The position numbers and the translations under genes were made by a program. The notes beneath the pieces were generated by a model. The model saw only the letters and a program-made list of their open reading frames with translations. It searched no databases and had not been told where the DNA came from. Below, piece after piece: positions 958 through 64,000 of a DNA stretch of 64,000 nucleotides. Source of the stretch: a virus (Duplodnaviria; Caudoviricetes); the IMG/VR virus record IMGVR_UViG_2848581113_000005, positions 18,406 to 82,405 of that record; one strand, 5' to 3'. The stretch's first letter is position 1; each line of letters opens with the position of its first letter.

Positions 958-2337
958 TTAGTCAAATTGAACATCAAAAGGTTTATTATCTCTAGCTAAC
1001 TCTAATAACCTTAATGCTTCTCTTGAATATTTACGAGTAAAGCTTGATTTGCCTGTTCTTACCTTTTGATGATATATGTTATCTGTTTCCTTTATATCTT
1101 TCCCTGTAGCTTCTTTGATTTTTTGTATTAATTGATTTACGTAATTCCAATTACGATATCCAAGGGACTCTGCTAAAGACGTCATTGTAAAACAATAATT
1201 AGCATTAAATAAATCTAACGAATCACCATCGGTAATTCCATAAACTCTTTCTAATTTACCATCATCTAAGGCTAACTCAGTCAACCTAGTATAATCAATA
1301 GAAACTGTATTCATGGGTATGTCAGAGTTAATCAGCTTATAGTTTCTTGCTAATAATGCTCTCAATACCTTAGGATTAACATTATCCATTGCTGGATGAG
1401 CAGCAAAGGCTTCAAACACCCATTTAAAATCATTAGATACTATTCTTTTTATTCTTACATGCTTATTATTATCAATATTAATCATCGCTTCTCTGGCAGG
1501 ATAAGAGTTTTCATCTATTTCTTTATCTCTATTTAGTATATAGATGTTAGGAATCAACTCCCCCTCTTCCGATAGGATTTCATCTATATCAGACAAAATT
1601 CCTTTTATATTTTCATCCTCAATACTATAACCAATAAATATTAAAGGATGTTCAGCAAAAAAAGTTAATAATTTAGCACTAAGGTATTTTTTCTTACTCA
1701 AAAAATCATCGTAATCATTTCTATTGATAACAATTGATGCTGGCTCATTACAAGAGCCATGTATTTTAAATATTTCTCCAGTGCTACTATTAACTAACCT
1801 TATGATTTTTTGTCCAACTATAATTTCATGGTCAGGAAAAATTCCATCAATTATATTGTCGTAATTAGTTGTTACAATGGAGTGTGGATGAATGGATTTT
1901 AATGATTTTATTTCATCAGCAAACTCATTTTCATCAATTATTTCCAGACGATTAAAAAAATCGGCTATTTTATACTTCAGGTATATATCTCCATCATAAC
2001 GTTCACTGAATAATTCTTCAGGAAAATTAGACTTCCCTTCCGCCCAAGCCCAATCCCTATAAGCATCTGACAAGATAGTTCCAATGTCTATTAGTGACTC
2101 ATTTTTTTGTGTGTAATACGCGAATGGACGCTTAATTTCTGGACATTGCTCCATTAAATTTTTAAGCAAACTCTCCCAATCTGGTCCGTTCGCGTACCTT
2201 CTTGTCAGGCCTGAACCAATAAATAGAATTGGCTGACACTCAAGACTTTCTAGGCATGCTTGAATATCATCCGTTACATCTAATTGATATTGCTTATAAT
2301 CTCTGTTCATAGGATTTATCATTGATAACGAATACAT
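958..2337 (-). CDS. SIR2-like (SIR2_2) domain protein with a small C-terminal domain; candidate anti-phage NADase moron
   Basis: Motifs PILFIGSGL, PDWESLL, IVTTNYD, IFKIHGS, PLIFIGYSIED; AT-rich compared with flanks; AGAGGA RBS before MYSL. Confidence 0.85.
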   Translation of the reverse strand: MYSLSMINPMNRDYKQYQLDVTDDIQACLESLECQPILFIGSGLTRRYANGPDWESLLKNLMEQCPEIKRPFAYYTQKNESLIDIGTILSDAYRDWAWAEGKSNFPEELFSERYDGDIYLKYKIADFFNRLEIIDENEFADEIKSLKSIHPHSIVTTNYDNIIDGIFPDHEIIVGQKIIRLVNSSTGEIFKIHGSCNEPASIVINRNDYDDFLSKKKYLSAKLLTFFAEHPLIFIGYSIEDENIKGILSDIDEILSEEGELIPNIYILNRDKEIDENSYPAREAMINIDNNKHVRIKRIVSNDFKWVFEAFAAHPAMDNVNPKVLRALLARNYKLINSDIPMNTVSIDYTRLTELALDDGKLERVYGITDGDSLDLFNANYCFTMTSLAESLGYRNWNYVNQLIQKIKEATGKDIKETDNIYHQKVRTGKSSFTRKYSREALRLLELARDNKPFDVQFD

Positions 2338-6448: not shown

Positions 6449-6847
6449 TTACGCAACCGCTCTAACCAATTCTTTTCGCACACCTTTATTTATTTCCAAC
6501 GTCACCCCAGAGACCGCCAGAACGCCTTCGATAAACCCTTCCGCTACCTGTACCCGTTTGGTCACTTCGTTATGGGAAATCCCTAACGGGTCACTCATCG
6601 ACCGCAATGCGATCCCTTTAATATAGTGCAGCACAATAAGCTGGAATAAATAAGGATCATGTTGTTTCAATCGCAACACAGCCGCATCTAGCGCCATGCC
6701 GTCATCATCACAACACGGGGAACGCATTCTCCGGTTACGGGGCAGCAATCTCTTAAATCCGGCAGCCACGGAGGGCCAGTCTACCGGGCTTTTGCCCTCA
6801 CAGACCCATGCGCCCCATTGGTTCAGGATCATTCGCATATCACGCAT
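6449..6847 (-). CDS. Late antitermination protein Q
   Basis: MRDMRMILNQWGAW...VAAGFKRLL...CCDDDG...AEGFIEGVL. Confidence 0.9.
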   Translation of the reverse strand: MRDMRMILNQWGAWVCEGKSPVDWPSVAAGFKRLLPRNRRMRSPCCDDDGMALDAAVLRLKQHDPYLFQLIVLHYIKGIALRSMSDPLGISHNEVTKRVQVAEGFIEGVLAVSGVTLEINKGVRKELVRAVA

Positions 6848-45145: not shown

Positions 45146-45565
45146 TCAGAAATTGCTGCATAATTGGTGTAAGTTAGTATCATCTGACTCCATCTGAACG
45201 TATTTATCCATTTCCAATGGCACATCCAGCATCATTAACATGCCATCAATGACCCCCTCAGCTTTTTGTAATCGCTTCCCAATGTAGGTATCAGAACAAT
45301 GATAATCATTTGCCAGCTGCATAAAGGTTTTGCCGAAAACGTAATAGTCGAACAGCAAATCATGCGCCTCACTGTTTTTCTTGTTCAGCCTCGCCATGCA
45401 ACCGGAGATAATTAATGCATCATCGTCACAACATTGCGACCTAGATTTGACCTTATTAGGGATCAACCCTTTAAATCCCGCCGCAATAGACGACCAAGAA
45501 ACCTCTTCCCGATTATCAGCTGCCCACGCTCCCCAGCGCTCCATTACCCATTGAATATTACGCAT
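45146..45565 (-). CDS. Late antitermination protein Q
   Basis: [14 protein letters not shown]...IAAGFKGL...CCDDDAL...AEGVIDGML. Confidence 0.9.
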
Positions 45566-49805: not shown

Positions 49806-50552
49806 TTAAAACGGTATATCTGTTGTGTCTATTGGGGGCGCGGGGAGACGAGGACCAATGAATGCCGCCTGCTCTTTCAAATAGGCCTCGTACATTTGGT
49901 CTGTTTCACTCTGGATTAAATAAGCCGTTCCGTTTTGGAAGAAAAGTGAAAACGGTTTTTCTCTGTTTTTCTTGATGAGATTGTTAACAGCGAATCGTAT
50001 TAGCCTATCAGCGGCAGATAATTTACAGCCGAAAACTGCCACTCCCAGACTCTCAAAGAGTGCAGCGAGATTCAGCGATTTTAATTTTTCAGTACAAATA
50101 ACATCGTAAGCATCCGCTAATTCCTCGACAGTCACCCCGACTCTAATTAGTCCATGCTCTTCGCATAAAAATATAATTTCCTCCAGAGGGGCATTAAAAA
50201 ATTCTCTGGATTCATTAATGCGAAATTCAGATAGCATTTCATGCACAGCCGCCTCATCATAAGAAGGGTCTTCTGAATAAAAAGAAGCAGCTATTTCAAA
50301 CTTGAAAGGAACGCCAGTCGCAGATGCTAATTCCTTTGCCCTGATTTCTGGCGAAGTGGTCGTCATACCCACTTTAAATATTCCCGGCATGTATTTATTG
50401 CTGAGCACATAAACCCAGCCTTCAACGCGGAAATTTTCCGATAATTCCGCATGTGTTATTATTCCTTTATGGACTTCCATTTCTTCTAAGTGCATAATTA
50501 CCTCTGTGAAATGTTGTTTTTGAGAGGGGCTTGCATACCGTTCTCTCATCAC
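49806..50552 (-). CDS. GIY-YIG / T5orf172 (MUG113-like) protein
   Basis: GWVYVLSN..MPGIFKVGMT...RAKEL..TGVP...REFF. Confidence 0.85.
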   Translation of the reverse strand: MMRERYASPSQKQHFTEVIMHLEEMEVHKGIITHAELSENFRVEGWVYVLSNKYMPGIFKVGMTTTSPEIRAKELASATGVPFKFEIAASFYSEDPSYDEAAVHEMLSEFRINESREFFNAPLEEIIFLCEEHGLIRVGVTVEELADAYDVICTEKLKSLNLAALFESLGVAVFGCKLSAADRLIRFAVNNLIKKNREKPFSLFFQNGTAYLIQSETDQMYEAYLKEQAAFIGPRLPAPPIDTTDIPF

Positions 50553-50914
50553 TCAATCAGCAGTTCTAATTGCTTTTCGGAAGCCTCAGTTGCGTCAACA
50601 ACTGGGGTTTTTCTTTTTGGGTATCTGAGTTCATCCAGAATGGAAAGTAACTTGCTGGCCTCAACGCCTGTCAGCACAATATTGGCTTCACATCCCGGCG
50701 CCGCGACACTGCCTTCAGGTAATCCCAAGTTCACAATCATTAAACTGGCTAATTTTGCTATCCGGTTTTTGTCTCTACTCAATGAAGACGGATGAATTCC
50801 CATTTCACGTGATAAGTCATTGTTTCCATACTCCAAAACAGATTTAAGAAAATACGATTCCAGATATTGAGCACTACACGTAACGCGAGTATTGCGAGTT
50901 TTTGCAACTTCCAT
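50549..50914 (-). CDS. CII-like protein
   Basis: MGIHPSSLSRDK HTH; first gene after cro and nutR. Confidence 0.7.
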   Translation of the reverse strand: MEVAKTRNTRVTCSAQYLESYFLKSVLEYGNNDLSREMGIHPSSLSRDKNRIAKLASLMIVNLGLPEGSVAAPGCEANIVLTGVEASKLLSILDELRYPKRKTPVVDATEASEKQLELLIE

Positions 50915-51002
50915 TTGATATATTTCCTAACGTTAAATTAGTTAATGTTTGTTTAATAAAAATACAAAATCGTCAGCTATCCTGAGATAGATGAGGATTA
51001 AT

Positions 51003-51131
51003 CACGAACACGGCGTCATGGTGTCAGCCTTTACGGGTTGTCCCCGATTGCCTGAGATCAAATCTCGGCGCTATTTCGGTTTGCTAGGGTTCACCTATTG
51101 GCCTGTCGTGAGGGCAGATTGTTAAAGAGCG
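51003..51131 (-). ncRNA. nutR: boxA plus an extended conserved structured RNA
   Basis: CGCTCTTTAACAA (51131-51119) followed by a 108-nt element homologous to 52361-52483. Confidence 0.8.
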
Positions 51132-51138
51132 TGAATAA

Positions 51139-51345
51139 TTACATGAATCTTTGTGGGTACAAGATCTGCATCTCGTTAATCATCCCTTTGTAAAATTGAG
51201 ATAGTTTTTCAGCCATCTCCAGAGATGCCGCTTGATTCCCACGCTCTAATCGGCTCAAGTTACCAACATCACAATTAACAGCTTCTGCAACCTCAGCAAT
51301 TGTTAAATTGTTTTTGAGCCTAATTTTTCGCAATGGCGTTTGCAT
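51139..51345 (-). CDS. Cro-like repressor
   Basis: MQTPLRKIR...LTIAEVAEAVNCDVGNLSRLERG...EMQILYP; AAGGAG RBS. Confidence 0.88.
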   Translation of the reverse strand: MQTPLRKIRLKNNLTIAEVAEAVNCDVGNLSRLERGNQAASLEMAEKLSQFYKGMINEMQILYPQRFM

Positions 51346-51360
51346 ATTTATCTCCTTTAA

Positions 51361-51423
51361 ATGCGTTATACGCATATTATTACACAAAATGAATATGCGC
51401 AAGACGCTTTGAGTGAAACGCAA
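51361..51423. promoter_or_regulatory. OR operators of prophage B
   Basis: ATGCGTTATACGCAT, ATGCGCAAGACGCTT and TTGAGTGAAACGCAA 15-bp palindromes. Confidence 0.75.
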
Positions 51424-51443
51424 AAAATGAGTCCAATGGCAAA

Positions 51444-52118
51444 ATGAAAATCGGTTCACAAATAAGAAAGCTTCGCAAAGCGAAGGGCATGACAATCCTT
51501 GAACTAGCCAATGCTATAAATAGCGATGTGGGTAACATCTCTCGTCTTGAAAGAAACAAACAAGGCTATACAAATTCAACAATCTCGAAAATAGCCGAAG
51601 CGTTGGAGGTTAAAGTGGCTGATTTATTTACTGAGAGTAATGAAAATGAATTATTAGTTAAAACCAACCTAACCCGTAAAAAAAAATACTTCAAAATTGG
51701 GGCATTGGATGTAGAAGCCAGTGCTGGCCCTGGTATTTCAACGGGAGAATTCATAGAAACAATAGGGTCTATAGAATACACAACTGATGAAGCTAAGCTA
51801 ATTTTTGGCAATAGGCGCGAGGACATAGTAAAGGTTATCGCTGTTAAAGGGGATAGCATGAGTGGTACGATCGAATCCGGAGACCAAATATTTGTTGATG
51901 TTACAGTCAATCACTTTGATGGCGATGGCATCTATGTTTTTTCTTTCGGACGTGCATTGTATGTAAAACGACTTCAACTTCAAAAGAATAAGCTGGCTGT
52001 TTTGTCTGATAATCGAAATTATCAGACATGGTATATTGAGGAAAATGAGGAACCTCAATTATTCATACAAGGGAAAGTAATTGTTAGCCATTCCCATGTT
52101 TATCGGAAGCATGGATAA
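51444..52118 (+). CDS. CI repressor (HTH plus S24 peptidase, RecA-cleavable)
   Basis: ASAGPG cleavage site, VKGDSM Ser, YVKRL Lys. Confidence 0.93.
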   Translation: MKIGSQIRKLRKAKGMTILELANAINSDVGNISRLERNKQGYTNSTISKIAEALEVKVADLFTESNENELLVKTNLTRKKKYFKIGALDVEASAGPGISTGEFIETIGSIEYTTDEAKLIFGNRREDIVKVIAVKGDSMSGTIESGDQIFVDVTVNHFDGDGIYVFSFGRALYVKRLQLQKNKLAVLSDNRNYQTWYIEENEEPQLFIQGKVIVSHSHVYRKHG

Positions 52119-52265
52119 CCCAATCAAATTATTAATTAAAGCCTCCTATTGGGGGCTTTAATTTTGCCAATTTAATGATTTGCGTCACAAATAAAATATT
52201 CCACATAAAAATTATTCTCTTTTAATTCAAATGATTATGTATTTTTTACATCATAACTCAAAATA

Positions 52266-52294
52266 TGCGTTTGACGCATATGCTTAAAGCGCAT
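52266..52294. promoter_or_regulatory. OL operators and PL of prophage B
   Basis: ATGCGTTTGACGCAT and ATGCTTAAAGCGCAT overlapping TTGACG -35 and TATATT -10. Confidence 0.75.
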
Positions 52295-52337
52295 ATATTG
52301 TATTCATCCAAGGCACACAGCCAAAGATAATCTCCAC

Positions 52338-52483
52338 CGCTCTTTAACAACTCAAACTCCCACGACAGGCAACTGACGAGCCCTAGCACATTGAAATTGC
52401 GCCAAGAATGACTCTTAGGCAATCGGGAAATGCAGGAGCAGATCAACCCCGTAAAGGCGCACTCGTTAAGAAGCTGGGTCGTG
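52338..52483 (+). ncRNA. nutL: boxA plus an extended conserved structured RNA
   Basis: CGCTCTTTAACAA (52338-52350), then a CACGAC...GTCGTG-enclosed element homologous to nutR. Confidence 0.8.
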
Positions 52484-52806
52484 TATTAACCAAAAGGAAA
52501 ACTAATCATGGTTTAACAAAGCGGACAGACCGCAAGCGCAATGCGTTAATTCTGCGGTAGTGACGCAGACCTGAGTCACCAAGGAATGGTGAGCCTGTGT
52601 AGCGACGGGTCAAGGTTCATAATTACAAATAGCTCCGGCACTCCAAGTTGACTGCCAATCAACTACCGGTTAGAGATGAGGGATTCTCGGGAATACCCTT
52701 TTCTACGCACTCAAGGGCATGAGCGCGACCACTGCGAGAGTGTGGTTGGCTAACTGTAGGCCATTCAATGAGTGGTCTATGGTGAGTTAATTAACGGAGA
52801 AATTCC

Positions 52807-53058
52807 ATGAACGACAAAGATTATTGGCTGGAAAATATGCTGGATGGTTTTTTCGCTCAAGAACGTCAAAAAGAACGCAGTAATTTCTGGAGCAATCGCG
52901 AACCTAAACAGCGTATTACCAAACAGGAACGCGACACCATCAATGTACTCAACAGCTTTATTCCGGCAATCAATAAAGCTCCAGCAAAAGAATGTGCTTC
53001 AACCAACAATAAACCTCCCCGTCGTAGACTGGGATCGGGGAATGTGACAGCTCAATAA
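52807..53058 (+). CDS. Candidate N-like antiterminator (by position)
   Basis: First ORF of the PL operon; basic C-terminus RRRLGSGNVTAQ reminiscent of P22-type N ends; no N-terminal Arg-rich motif. Confidence 0.4.
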   Translation: MNDKDYWLENMLDGFFAQERQKERSNFWSNREPKQRITKQERDTINVLNSFIPAINKAPAKECASTNNKPPRRRLGSGNVTAQ

Positions 53059-53071
53059 GAGAGGTTATTAA

Positions 53072-53566
53072 ATGGAGTTAACGCAACGAAAACTAAAAGA
53101 CATACTTAGTTATGATCCAGAAAGTGGTCTTTTTCATTGGAGAAAGGTGGTTAGTGGGCCAGTAAAAATCGGACAAATTGCAGGAACTAAGAATAGTAAT
53201 GGTCACATAATGATATCTATTTCAAGAAAGCGTTATGTGGCACATAGATTAGCTTGGTTGTACATGACCGGTAAATGGCCTACCGGTGAAATAGATCATG
53301 TAAATGTTATTGGTTCTGATAATAGATGGAATAATTTACGACTATGTACAAGATCTGAGAATGAATGCAATAAAGGGTTGAGAAAAGACAATACATCTGG
53401 CTTTAAGGGTGTTTGCTGGAATAAAACAAATAAAAAATGGATAGTGAAGATTAAATTAAACAACAAAACTAGAAATCTAGGTGGTTTTAATGATATTGAG
53501 CTCGCCGATTTAGTCGCTAGAGAAGCCAGAGAAAAATATCATGGTTTATTTGCTAGACATAACTAA
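53072..53566 (+). CDS. HNH homing endonuclease with an AP2-like domain
   Basis: YDPESG, AHRLAW, IDHVN..DNRWNNLR, NTSGFKGV. Confidence 0.9.
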   Translation: MELTQRKLKDILSYDPESGLFHWRKVVSGPVKIGQIAGTKNSNGHIMISISRKRYVAHRLAWLYMTGKWPTGEIDHVNVIGSDNRWNNLRLCTRSENECNKGLRKDNTSGFKGVCWNKTNKKWIVKIKLNNKTRNLGGFNDIELADLVAREAREKYHGLFARHN

Positions 53567-53955
53567 TTCCGAGTGGGCTGTGGTGAGTTAATCATTACAG
53601 TGAGGTGCAATGTGAGTAGAAGTAATAAAGCGCTGGATTCGTTAAGTATCTGCGTATCACTATTAACAAATAGAGCTTTTCTGGGAAGAATAACAAAGAA
53701 AAAGGGAATTCCTGATTTTGTATGTATGATTGGTGCGCGTCGTGATATCACCCATGAAGTATTAGACACCGCGTCACAGATTATTACCAATAACAATAAA
53801 GTTGACAGACCAACAATTATTGAGGTTGGTGATATTAAATATAAATTAGAACTCATTGAGTTAAAATAATAGCGGCCTCGCAAATGCGGGGTTTTTTATT
53901 ACCTGAATTAACAAACCATATTGTTGATGTCAACGAAATGGTAATAGGAGAGATT

Positions 53956-62960: not shown

Positions 62961-64000
62961 AGGCCGAAGCTTGGCGAGTAGACCGGCTAGATGATCTGCC
63001 AACTCGTACATTTGAAGAATGCTGCATTCGTTGGCTCAGAGAAAAAGAGCATAAACGATCACTGGATGATGATAAAACGAAAATTGAATTTTTCTTGCGG
63101 CATTTTTCAGGTCGGGATGTTTCAACAATAACAGCAGATGAAATTTACGATGCTGTATCAAAAATGAAAAATCGTAAACATTATCAAGTCTGGGAAAGTA
63201 AAAGAGATGCCGCTCTAAGAAAAGGGGAAAAGCCTCCTATATATGAGGCTATTCCAGTTAGCCAAGCAACAAAAAGCCAGCACTTATCATTCATTAGATC
63301 GCTGTTAAGGGCAGCGGTCAATGAATGGAGCTGGATTAAGTCAGCTCCTGTTATAAAAACCAAAAAACCAGCAAGTAAGCGTATAAGATGGCTAACAAAA
63401 GATGAAGCAGCGAGACTCATCGAATGTATGCCTGAAAGTATAAAGCCCGTCGTCATCTTTGCATTAGCAACAGGGCTTAGACGTTCCAATATCATAGATA
63501 TGGAATGGCAACAGGTCGATGTACAAAGAAAAGTAGCATGGATAAACCCAGAAAATGCAAAGGCTGGAAAAGCTATAGGTATAGCTCTGAACGATACTGC
63601 TTGTCGAGTATTAAGAAATCAGATAGGAAAGCACGCACGGTGGGTATTTGTCCATACCAAGGCTAAGCATCGACCAGATGGAACATTGACCCCGGCAGTG
63701 AGAAAGATGAGGGTTGATGATAATAGCGCATGGAATACTGGTCTAAAAAAAGCAGGAATCGAAGATTTCCGTTTTCACGACCTCCGGCACACATGGGCAA
63801 GCTGGCTCATACAATCGGGAGTTCCGCTTTCCGCACTACAAGAAATGGGCGGTTGGGAATCAATTGAGATGGTAAGGCGATATGCACATTTAGCGCCTAA
63901 TCATTTAAGCGAACACGCCTGTAAAATTGATGAGCTTTTTAGAGATAACGACACAAATACGACACAAGGGAAAAATCAAGCAGGTCTTAGAATAGCATAA
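62837..64000 (+). CDS. intD: Tyrosine integrase, DLP12 IntD / P22 Int family
   Basis: [35 protein letters not shown]; 387 aa and close throughout to the argU-targeting IntD as recalled. Confidence 0.95.
63948..63966 (+). repeat. Integrase arm-type direct repeat ACGACACA x2
   Basis: Same motif as 12307-12379. Confidence 0.75.

What the first reader, a model, noticed from the sequence alone, without database searches (positions are those of the whole stretch)
51003..52483. Twin ~110-125 nt structured RNAs replace boxB at both nut sites of prophage B
Seen: both early transcripts have boxA CGCTCTTTAACAA followed 8-10 nt later by homologous elements. Right (51110-51003, minus): CACGACAGGC..CCCTAGCA..GAAATAGCGCCGAGATTTGATCTCAGGCAATCGGG-GACAA-CCCGTAAAGGC..TTCGTG. 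Left (52361-52483): CACGACAGGC..CCCTAGCA..GAAATTGCGCCAAGAATGACTCTTAGGCAATCGGG-(20 nt)-CCCGTAAAGGC..GTCGTG. They share a closing helix CACGA/TCGTG, a compensatory change (GCCGAGA/TCTC-A-GGC versus GCCAAGA/TCTT-A-GGC) and a CGGG/CCCG stem with a variable loop. Known: lambda and P22 use a short boxB hairpin; HK022 uses a two-hairpin put RNA. Inference: this is a distinct multibranch antitermination RNA working with NusB/S10 at boxA.
Basis: partly seen in the sequence, partly recalled or inferred. Interest (0 to 1): 0.75.

Follow-up and report, generated by a model that had tools for sequence, protein, structure and literature searches.

The report
BoxA-linked folded RNA at phage nut sites
Both early transcripts of this Xenorhabdus prophage carry the host's ribosomal boxA signal followed by a conserved 110-125-base folded RNA, where lambda has its small boxB hairpin; this RNA family is in no RNA catalogue and probably lets RNA polymerase ignore stop signals.

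Summary
The two elements (52361-52483 +, 51110-51003 -) are real homologues. Each lies 8-10 nt after the only two boxA copies in the window, one after PL and one after cro.

They belong to a large structured-RNA family (class I):
- 35 distinct copies in Xenorhabdus prophages.
- Diverged subtypes in E. coli (104 of 5426 complete genomes), in Yersinia phages YeP4-6, and in many IMG/VR proviruses.
- Covariation supports five of the seven modelled helices: 20 of 26 pairs show double changes, and 96.5% of cells pair against 75.7% when shuffled.

Neither Rfam 15 nor four literature searches describe it. Covariance models find no match in HK022 put.

Evidence for function is comparative only:
- The boxA equals the host rrn boxA.
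- The RNA always follows boxA at the head of early operons, upstream of terminators.
- Among 21 sister phages anchored on one PL gene, 15 carry boxA plus this RNA and 5 carry an HK022 put-like RNA in the same slot.
- In Xenorhabdus the nutL slot alternatively holds two other unrelated folded RNAs.
- No N-like protein is shared across the family.

Best reading (about 0.6): a new boxA-dependent, probably protein-free antitermination RNA.

Earlier agents of this scan reached the same reading for the E. coli subtype on other DNA.

The parts
52271..52299 (+). PL-like sigma-70 promoter (TTGACG-17-TATATT) overlapped by ATGCG...CGCAT operator-like palindromes
   Evidence: 10 of 12 matches; palindromes read
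52338..52350 (+). boxA of the left transcript (CGCTCTTTAACAA)
   Evidence: the same 12-mer flanks the host genus's 16S genes
52361..52483 (+). Left (nutL-position) class I RNA element. Helices: 52362-52365/52479-52482; 52368-52369/52474-52475; 52375-52378/52464-52467; 52382-52384/52455-52457; 52401-52407/52413-52420 (bulged A); 52424-52427/48-51 i.e. 52448-52451
   Evidence: R1 hit 52359-52485, 116.5 bits; helix coordinates
52493..52517 (+). Shine-Dalgarno-like AAGGAAAA followed by a two-codon mini-ORF (ATG GTT TAA, 52509-52517). Similar start-stop or one-codon ORFs follow the L copies of other Xenorhabdus prophages
   Evidence: read; not tested further
52484..52806 (+). ORF-free, hairpin-rich PL leader between the element and the first gene
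   Evidence: a 187-nt contig of one size-fractionated RNA library lies on 52513-52699
52678..52705 (+). Weak terminator-like hairpin followed by TTTTCT, ahead of the 83-aa ORF
   Evidence: -11.9 kcal/mol including A-U pairs with the U tract; the hairpin alone is only about -5 kcal/mol
52807..53058 (+). 83-aa ORF in the N position (orf83): two predicted helices and a basic disordered tail; the family is known only from Xenorhabdus
53874..53903 (+). Intrinsic-terminator-like site inside the PL operon (8-bp stem, 5 G-C pairs, T run)
51444..52118 (+). cI-like repressor (HTH plus S24 peptidase type)
51139..51345 (-). cro-like HTH gene, first gene of the rightward (minus-strand) early transcript
51119..51131 (-). 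boxA of the right transcript (CGCTCTTTAACAA), 8 nt after the cro stop codon
51003..51110 (-). Right (nutR-position) class I RNA element. Helices: 51109-51106/51007-51004; 51103-51102/51013-51012; 51095-51092/51023-51020; 51088-51086/51030-51028; 51069-51063/51057-51050 (bulged A); 51046-51043/51037-51034
   Evidence: R1 hit 51001-51112, 110.9 bits; helix coordinates
50955..50999 (-). Hairpin followed by TTTTGTATTTTT immediately after the R copy (tR1-like position); the hairpin is conserved after R copies of other prophages
   Evidence: -9.7 kcal/mol, z -2.56
50549..50914 (-). cII-like gene, first gene after the R copy
   Evidence: (weak PHROG CII hit, E 8e-4)
45212..45565 (-). Q-type late antiterminator gene at the distal end of the rightward early operon
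   Evidence: PF06530, 176 bits; record 63617-63970 = window 45212-45565

Best explanation
Each element is the RNA half of a nut-type processive antitermination signal. As the early transcript emerges, the rrn-type boxA recruits host NusB-S10. The adjacent 105-135-nt multi-helix RNA sits exactly where lambda has boxB. It has a closing stem, an extension stem, an invariant purine-rich internal loop, a hairpin with a bulged A and an optional fourth hairpin. This RNA folds and, I infer, docks on the elongation complex (RNA polymerase and/or NusA). There it would do the job that N bound to boxB does in lambda and that put RNA does alone in HK022. The modified polymerase would then read through the terminators that follow: the hairpin with U tract after the R copy, and the weak hairpin at 52678 and the terminator at 53874 after the L copy. 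Shown here: the RNA family, its structure, its fixed link to boxA and to the start of early operons, and its replacement by put-like RNA in sister phages. Inferred: read-through itself, dependence on Nus factors, and independence from any phage protein.
For: 1. A real, conserved structure. There are 35 distinct Xenorhabdus copies, and RNAalifold finds 26 pairs, 8 of them with compensatory changes. Across 54 distinct sequences of six subtypes, 96.5% of cells pair against 75.7% in shuffles and 26-40% when the partners are slid. 20 of 26 pairs show double changes, with 0 of 500 shuffles reaching the observed covariation score.

2. A fixed link to boxA that does not depend on how copies were found. 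43 of 43 copies found by a core-only pattern have boxA 8-12 nt upstream. All 15 class I copies found through a neighbouring protein have it too, 19 nt before the model hit in the 14 measured. Both copies found by the covariance model in genomes have it.

3. The boxA is the host's rrn boxA. In X. ehlersii the 12-mer occurs 17 times against 0 in the reversed control, and 12 of these flank the six 16S genes.

4. Position. The element follows a repressor-controlled promoter or cro.

5. Slot swapping with a proven antiterminator. Among 21 loci anchored on one PL-operon protein, 15 have boxA plus class I. One has a deletion remnant. Five have no boxA and instead carry an RNA 82-89% identical to HK022 putL over 45-74 nt, with the same downstream flank.

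6. A terminator must be passed. All 20 of those loci that carry a module have a strong hairpin plus T run (-7.8 to -15.7 kcal/mol) between the module and the anchored gene. The window has terminator-like sites after both copies.

7. No shared phage partner. The RNA core is nearly invariant while the repressors of the Xenorhabdus loci range from 84% to below 30% identity. orf83 is absent from 136 loci fetched outside Xenorhabdus (1.35 Mb). The lambda N36 model finds nothing in the record.

8. The L and R copies are old paralogues, kept separately: 61% identical to each other, but 98% and 96% to their positional counterparts in other prophages.
Against: - There is no functional data of any kind.
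- The terminator-like hairpins in the window are weak: about -5 kcal/mol for the stem alone at 52678 and -9.7 after the R copy.
- Every Xenorhabdus locus searched that yielded orf83 also carries a class I copy, so a phage partner cannot be excluded there.
- N proteins diverge too fast for HMM negatives to count for much.
- boxA alone can nucleate a Nus complex on rrn (established knowledge), so the folded RNA might do something else.
- The cross-subtype alignment was fitted to the model, which inflates the paired percentage.
- Three helices (P3, the 2-bp pair and most of P1 within Xenorhabdus) hardly vary, so they are not supported by covariation.
- The one RNA library that holds this prophage shows a contig on the leader, not on the element.
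Confidence: 0.62

Rival explanations
1. It is a protein-dependent nut site. The folded RNA is an oversized boxB equivalent that binds a phage antiterminator: orf83 in Xenorhabdus, and other unrecognised proteins elsewhere. That protein then bridges to NusA and RNA polymerase as lambda N does.
For: orf83 sits in the N position and is found in 25 Xenorhabdus loci, all of which carry class I. It is small and basic, with a conserved RRRL..GG.TAR tail predicted to be disordered. The invariant internal loop of class I can be drawn as a 3-bp mini-hairpin with an A-rich loop, and class II RNAs hold a CGCA-NAAA-UGCG hairpin; both are boxB-like in flavour.
Against: orf83 has no homologue in 136 loci fetched outside Xenorhabdus by HMM (E up to 1) or tblastn, nor anywhere outside Xenorhabdus in 5.8 billion proteins (12 hits). 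It has no PHROG or Pfam family. It lies about 320 nt downstream, behind a terminator-like hairpin. The RNA core stays invariant across phages with unrelated early genes. The same phage can use class I at nutR and an unrelated class II or III RNA at nutL. Sister phages use protein-free put in the slot.
Confidence: 0.2
2. It is a riboswitch-like attenuator. The conserved junction binds a small molecule or host signal and decides whether the hairpin just downstream terminates transcription, which would couple early phage transcription to cell state.
For: A multi-helix junction with near-invariant unpaired nucleotides is typical of aptamers. A hairpin, often with a U-rich tail, follows within 8-35 nt in several subtypes.
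Against: The downstream genes are unrelated: cII, the orf83 leader, or a 246-303-aa protein of unknown family. The constant partners are boxA and an early promoter instead. I saw no overlap between the 3' strand of P1 and the following hairpin that could form a switch. The element is interchangeable with put and with two other RNAs.
Confidence: 0.05
3. It is a structured RNA with another role: a processing or stability element, a translational control site for the leader's mini-ORF, or a stable decoy or small RNA released from the early transcripts. On this view boxA alone provides the antitermination.
For: boxA by itself supports Nus-dependent antitermination on rrn operons (established knowledge; tight NusB:NusE binding to rrn BoxA in PMC2800207, passages read). 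A small-RNA library holds a 187-nt piece of the PL leader, so processed leader fragments may accumulate.
Against: The contig does not cover the element. The R copy has no mini-ORF after it. A stability or processing role does not explain either the strict 8-12-nt spacing from boxA or the swap with put.
Confidence: 0.08

Closest known systems
HK022 put RNAs (putL, putR)
   Same: A cis-acting folded RNA placed after PL and after cro. Paralogous L and R copies flank the immunity region. In sister phages of the E. coli subtype a put-like RNA occupies the very slot that boxA plus class I occupies. put needs no phage protein (PMC9378689, passages read).
   Different: put is about 70 nt with two stem-loops and binds the beta' zinc-binding domain (PMC9378689). 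Class I is 105-135 nt with four to five helices around a junction. Models R1 and R2 find nothing in HK022 or in the put-like loci. Class I always has a consensus boxA, whereas 0 of 5 put-like loci do.
Lambda / P22-type nut sites (boxA - spacer - boxB with N and Nus factors)
   Same: A boxA followed after a short spacer by a folded RNA. One site lies after PL and one between cro and cII, ahead of terminators, with a Q gene at the end of the right operon.
   Different: There is no 15-nt boxB hairpin and no recognisable N. The boxA is the full rrn consensus rather than lambda's weaker variant; that lambda's is weaker is recalled, and is consistent with the 10-16-fold tighter NusB:NusE binding to rrn BoxA in PMC2800207.
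Ribosomal RNA operon antitermination leader (boxA with NusB/E/A/G, SuhB, S4)
   Same: The 12-nt boxA is identical to the one before 16S and in the 16S-23S spacer of the host genus. A host-only complex is plausible.
   Different: The rrn leader has no counterpart of the class I RNA that I know of (recalled, not tested). The phage element sits at repressor-controlled promoters.
EAR (eps-associated RNA) of Bacillus
   Same: A roughly 120-nt structured RNA that promotes processive antitermination within an operon (recalled).
   Different: It belongs to a different phylum and context, has no boxA, and is a different RNA. No Rfam family matched the element at an E-value up to 10.

Membership tests
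Lambda-type nut site | boxA that binds NusB-S10, upstream of the hairpin | tested here: met
   CGCTCTTTAACAA lies 8-10 nt upstream of both copies. It is identical to the host rrn boxA. Binding itself was not tested.
Lambda-type nut site | boxB: a short (about 15-nt) hairpin with a GNRA-like pentaloop | tested here: not met
   The position is filled by a 108-123-nt multi-helix RNA.
Lambda-type nut site | A phage N protein with an arginine-rich motif encoded next to nutL | tested here: inconclusive
   PF11438 gives no hit at E up to 1 in the record. orf83 has no PHROG or Pfam family. It is basic and partly disordered but confined to Xenorhabdus.
Lambda-type nut site | One site after PL and one between cro and cII, ahead of terminators | tested here: met
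HK022 put RNA | Sequence and structure similarity to putL/putR (two stem-loops, about 70 nt) | tested here: not met
   R1's best hit in HK022 has E 0.41 and lies outside the put region. R2 gives no hit in HK022 or in 5 put-like loci. The architectures differ (against PMC9378689).
HK022 put RNA | Acts in cis without phage protein or Nus factors, through the beta' zinc-binding domain | not testable with these tools
   This needs reporters in rpoC and nus mutants or in vitro transcription. Only the shared slot could be shown here.
Any Rfam 15 family | Covariance-model match at or near the gathering score | tested here: not met
   The window gave 0 hits at gathering. Nothing lay on the element at E up to 10 in 50500-53200. 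Nothing lay on the E. coli, Yersinia or other subtypes at E up to 1.
Riboswitch | Association with a defined set of downstream gene functions and an overlapping expression platform | tested here: not met
   The downstream genes are unrelated. No overlap of P1 with the next hairpin was seen. Ligand binding is not testable here.

The most novel reading that the evidence does not exclude
This is a third class of protein-free RNA antiterminator, and the first that is Nus-dependent. The folded RNA replaces N bound to boxB by docking on the elongation complex, while the rrn-strength boxA loads NusB-S10. Temperate phages of E. coli, Yersinia, Xenorhabdus and relatives would thus take over the host's ribosomal antitermination machine with RNA alone. 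Class I, class II (APSE-1-like), class III and put would be interchangeable cassettes for this one job.
Probability: 0.4. Interest if true: 0.85.

Novelty: new variant of a known kind. Interest (0 to 1): 0.72.

Why it matters
Only two kinds of RNA are known to make bacterial RNA polymerase termination-resistant by themselves: HK022 put and Bacillus EAR (the latter recalled). How N-less lambdoid phages read through their early terminators is mostly unexplained. This family would fill that gap. It is common, occurring in about 2% of complete E. coli genomes, in many Xenorhabdus species and in Yersinia phages. It is also easy to test in E. coli. Its combination of a consensus rrn boxA with a large folded RNA suggests a hybrid of the rrn and put mechanisms. 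The cassette-like exchange of unrelated RNAs in one slot offers a natural set of functional analogues for structural work on how nascent RNA reprograms RNA polymerase.

Tried and rejected
- **blastn of the L copy.** A search against 50,697 phage records found no match.

- **Wrong coordinates.** I gave reverse-complement coordinates for minus-strand loci. The queries were therefore primase and other coding DNA, not the element. Their hits (APSE, Klebsiella and Salmonella phages) say nothing about the element. I repeated the searches with correct coordinates:
  - one search found Yersinia YeP4-6 only;
  - one search found nothing;
  - one search found the four E. coli phages.

- **APSE-1.** I then checked it directly. 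It has a promoter and a consensus boxA after its repressor, but R1 and R2 find no class I RNA. It carries the class II RNA instead.

- **RNA evidence.** One size-fractionated RNA run (contigs only) holds a 187-nt contig on 52513-52699 and nothing on either element. Contigs cannot show absence, strand or ends, so this neither supports nor weakens the reading.

- **My terminator-finding script.** It was too strict and missed known hairpins, so I draw no counts from it.

- **orf83.**
  - The fold has low confidence (pLDDT 63.7, pTM 0.24) and I did not search with it.
  - A sub-threshold Pfam hit to phage ALC (E 0.026, 14.6 bits against a cut-off of 25) is taken as chance.

- **Family-level genome search.** R1 matched in 3 of 151 genomes sampled from the Xenorhabdus family group. 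Only 24 candidates per genome were scored, so this is a floor.

- **Chance matches to the patterns.**
  - 35 of 52 genome contigs stretches came from unrelated taxa. None of the 35 passed the family-signature filter, and none scored above 19 bits with R1.
  - 9 AT-rich coding matches turned up among L082-L189.

- **Literature.** Four searches found no description of a boxA-linked folded RNA at phage nut sites. The library lacks most subscription journals.
  - Passages read: PMC9378689, PMC11893012 (an ordinary N/boxB system, not related) and PMC2800207.
  - A term search of PMC3177189 returned nothing.
  - All other papers were seen only as search listings.
  - Supplements were closed. Supplementary Figs 10-11 of PMC9378689 (an alignment of ten put RNAs) and Supplementary Table S2 of PMC2800207 (boxA sequences) may bear on the comparison.

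- **Rfam and put.** Rfam seems to have no put family: nothing matched at E up to 1 over the HK022 immunity region.

- **Not run.** Complex prediction, fold search, the search of protein representatives, the protein-atlas search and a metagenome scan.
Full report
**1. The observation**

The window comes from an IMG/VR provirus record of 82,405 bases. The region is a lambdoid immunity region:
- a cI-like repressor at 51444-52118 (+);
- a cro-like gene at 51345-51139 (-);
- a cII-like gene at 50914-50549 (-);
- a PL-like promoter, TTGACG-17-TATATT, at 52271-52299, overlapped by ATGCG...CGCAT palindromes.

The 12-mer CGCTCTTTAACA occurs only twice in 64 kb. One copy lies at 52338 on the + strand, after PL. 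The other lies at 51131 on the - strand, 8 nt after the cro stop codon. About 0.30 matches are expected by chance.

They align block by block. They fold into the same multibranch shape, although the single-sequence z-scores are modest at -2.28 and -1.05.

**2. A family in Xenorhabdus**

Exact-pattern scans built from conserved blocks gave three results:
- 13 and 16 IMG/VR stretches;
- 52 stretches in genome contigs;
- of those 52, 17 lie in Xenorhabdus (12 named species and 2 unnamed strains), and the other 35 are chance matches in unrelated taxa that lack the rest of the element.

This yielded 44 elements, 36 of them distinct. All 43 that have upstream sequence carry a boxA-like GCTCTTTAA 8-12 nt before the element, although the search pattern did not include boxA.

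Thirty-five distinct copies were aligned. RNAalifold gives 26 pairs:
- P1: ACGA/UCGU.
- P1b: a 2-bp extension.
- P2: 4 bp, with U-A in 24 sequences and C-G in 11 at one pair.
- P3: an invariant CCU/AGG pair set.
- An invariant 2-bp pair around the loop AAAYYGAAAU.
- P4: 7 bp with a bulged A, with A-U in 20 sequences and U-A in 15 at one pair.
- P5: CGGG/CCCG with a loop of 5-24 nt.

Many loci hold two copies on opposite strands about 1.2-1.5 kb apart, flanking the repressor gene.

The window's two copies are only 61% identical to each other. Each is 98% (L) or 96% (R) identical to the copy in the same position in another prophage. P2 splits cleanly into an L type and an R type. The two positions are therefore old paralogues, each under its own selection.

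**3. The family is much wider**

A covariance model of the Xenorhabdus copies (R1) found weaker matches in three places:
- another IMG/VR provirus (25.8 bits);
- two further genomes of the same GTDB family (39 and 34.5 bits; 3 of 151 genomes matched);
- in each case just after a sigma-70 promoter and a boxA.

Of the distinct sequences, 9 were chance matches in AT-rich coding DNA. The rest form at least six subtypes with different helix sequences. One subtype lacks P5, and one natural variant has lost it (L146).

Named carriers are:
- four E. coli phages of the vB_EcoM-606R2 group;
- Yersinia phages YeP4-6;
- 104 of 5426 complete E. coli genomes, nearly always with no annotation under the match.

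On an alignment of 54 distinct sequences fitted to R1, 96.5% of cells form standard pairs. The figure is 75.7% in shuffles and 26-40% when the partners are slid by one to three columns. Twenty of 26 pairs show changes on both sides, including all four pairs of P1, which never vary within Xenorhabdus. An alignment fitted to the model leans towards the structure. Even so, the sliding control and the independent MAFFT/RNAalifold result point the same way.

**4. Not a known family**

- Rfam 15 gives nothing at gathering score in the window.
- It gives nothing on the element at E up to 10.
- It gives nothing on the other subtypes at E up to 1.
- Class II and class III RNAs also have no Rfam match.
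- HK022 put does not match R1: the best hit has E 0.41 and lies elsewhere in the genome.
- HK022 put also does not match the broader model R2, built from all subtypes.
- put is described as about 70 nt with two stem-loops, acting without protein factors through the beta' zinc-binding domain (PMC9378689, passages read).
- Four literature searches found no description of this element. The library is incomplete.

**5. What it does: comparative evidence**

(a) The boxA is the host's own. In X. ehlersii the 12-mer occurs 17 times against 0 in the reversed control. Twelve of these lie about 150 nt before, and 240-300 nt after, the six 16S genes. NusB:NusE binds rrn BoxA 10-16 times more tightly than lambda nut BoxA (PMC2800207, passages read).

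(b) The constant neighbours of the RNA are boxA and an early promoter, not any particular gene. It is followed by:
- cII (R copy);
- a 320-nt leader and orf83 (L copy);
- in the E. coli and Yersinia subtypes, an unknown 246-303-aa protein, DUF2800, an Enc34-type ssDNA-binding protein and a DNA polymerase.

(c) Slot swapping. Notes of earlier agents of this scan claimed that sister phages carry put in this slot, and I tested the claim. I fetched 21 loci through a protein of the PL operon, so the set is independent of the RNA.
- 14 have an R1 hit with boxA 19 nt upstream.
- One more is found by R2.
- One is a deletion remnant.
- Five have no boxA and instead carry, right after the promoter, an RNA 82-89% identical over 45-74 nt to the HK022 putL stretch (E 1e-10 to 1e-14).
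- The same flanking sequence follows either module.
- I located HK022 putL and putR from the gene layout and their mutual similarity.

(d) A terminator to pass. All 20 loci that carry a module have a strong hairpin plus T run (-7.8 to -15.7 kcal/mol) between the module and the anchored gene. This hairpin is the terminator of an RprA-like sequence.

(e) Alternative RNAs at nutL in Xenorhabdus. The nutL slot after boxA holds class I, or an unrelated class II RNA that APSE-1 also carries after its boxA, or a class III RNA. nutR keeps class I throughout. By loci, 13 are I+I and 7 are I+II; of the 7 scored I+other, two distinct sequences (L008, L015) are class III, one is a class I variant and one a chance match. 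Some loci are the same prophage seen in two collections.

(f) The window itself has:
- a hairpin plus U tract right after the R copy;
- a weak one before orf83;
- a better terminator at 53874 inside the PL operon;
- a Q gene at the far end of the right operon.

**6. Is a phage protein needed?**

orf83 is conserved in 25 Xenorhabdus loci at 37-77% identity. It has 12 database relatives, all Xenorhabdus hypothetical proteins. It belongs to no PHROG or Pfam family. Its low-confidence model shows two helices and a basic disordered tail.

It could be an N analogue, but several points count against that:
- It is missing from 136 loci fetched outside Xenorhabdus, 1.35 Mb in all.
- The RNA core is invariant while the repressors diverge to below 30% identity.
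- orf83 lies behind a terminator-like hairpin.

I therefore favour action with host factors only, at roughly two to one over a protein-dependent nut.

**7. Expression**

One public size-fractionated RNA library holds a 187-nt contig, 100% identical, on 52513-52699 in the PL leader. It ends at the weak hairpin. It does not cover the element. Because it is a contig, it shows no ends, strand or level.

**8. Verdict**

The twin elements are real. They are members of a widespread, structurally well-supported RNA family that is not catalogued, and they are tied to an rrn-type boxA at the nut positions of temperate phages. The most likely function is processive antitermination, in a form that differs from both lambda nut and HK022 put (confidence about 0.6). 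The main rival is a protein-dependent nut site (0.2).

Earlier agents of this scan reached the same reading for the E. coli subtype on other DNA. This window adds three things: the twin L/R arrangement, the Xenorhabdus subtype, and the class II and class III alternatives.

Noticed in passing
L006 6489-6640 (+), L012 7524-7680 (+), L010 8429-8280 (-), L060 4747 (+), L068 6618 (+); APSE-1 L192 2407-2260 (-): A second, unrelated folded RNA of about 150 nt (class II) follows boxA at the nutL slot of several Xenorhabdus prophages and of Hamiltonella phage APSE-1. It holds a CGCA-NAAA-UGCG hairpin and conserved GAUGUA and GAGAAGAUUAGC blocks. It has no Rfam match at E up to 1 and no R1 or R2 match.
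   Followed up: partly
L015 4963-5110 (+), L008 7843-7700 (-): A third RNA (class III) follows boxA at the nutL slot of other Xenorhabdus prophages. It has no Rfam match at E up to 1.
   Followed up: no
window 52493-52517 (+), and after the L-side RNAs of L004, L005, L008, L011, L013, L014, L015: A Shine-Dalgarno-like AAGGA(A/G) is followed by ATG plus zero or one codon and a stop (a start-stop or mini-ORF). It is conserved just after the nutL-side RNA, whichever RNA class precedes it. It may be a ribosome-loading site.
   Followed up: no
window 52513-52699 (+): A 187-nt contig from a size-fractionated RNA library matches the PL leader at 100% identity and ends at the hairpin before the T run at 52700. 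The leader may yield an abundant small RNA.
   Followed up: partly
L079 7037-7144 (-), and the hairpin GCCCGCC...GCGGGC plus T run in L193-L213: An RprA-like sequence (RF00034, 51.9 bits, below the gathering score of 70) with its terminator sits in the early-left leader of the E. coli-type prophages. It is on the same strand as the PL transcript and downstream of the boxA RNA or put module.
   Followed up: partly
L146 6498-6603 (-); L202 about 2248-2330 (+); L209 2848-2975 (+): Natural variants of the E. coli subtype: one lacks the P5 hairpin, one has an internal deletion that removes the invariant loop, and one has a 2-nt deletion in that loop. They could serve as ready-made mutants.
   Followed up: no
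window 6494-6847 (-): A second Q-type antiterminator gene (PF06530, 150 bits) belongs to the other prophage in the record. That prophage has no copy of the boxA 12-mer in the window.
   Followed up: no
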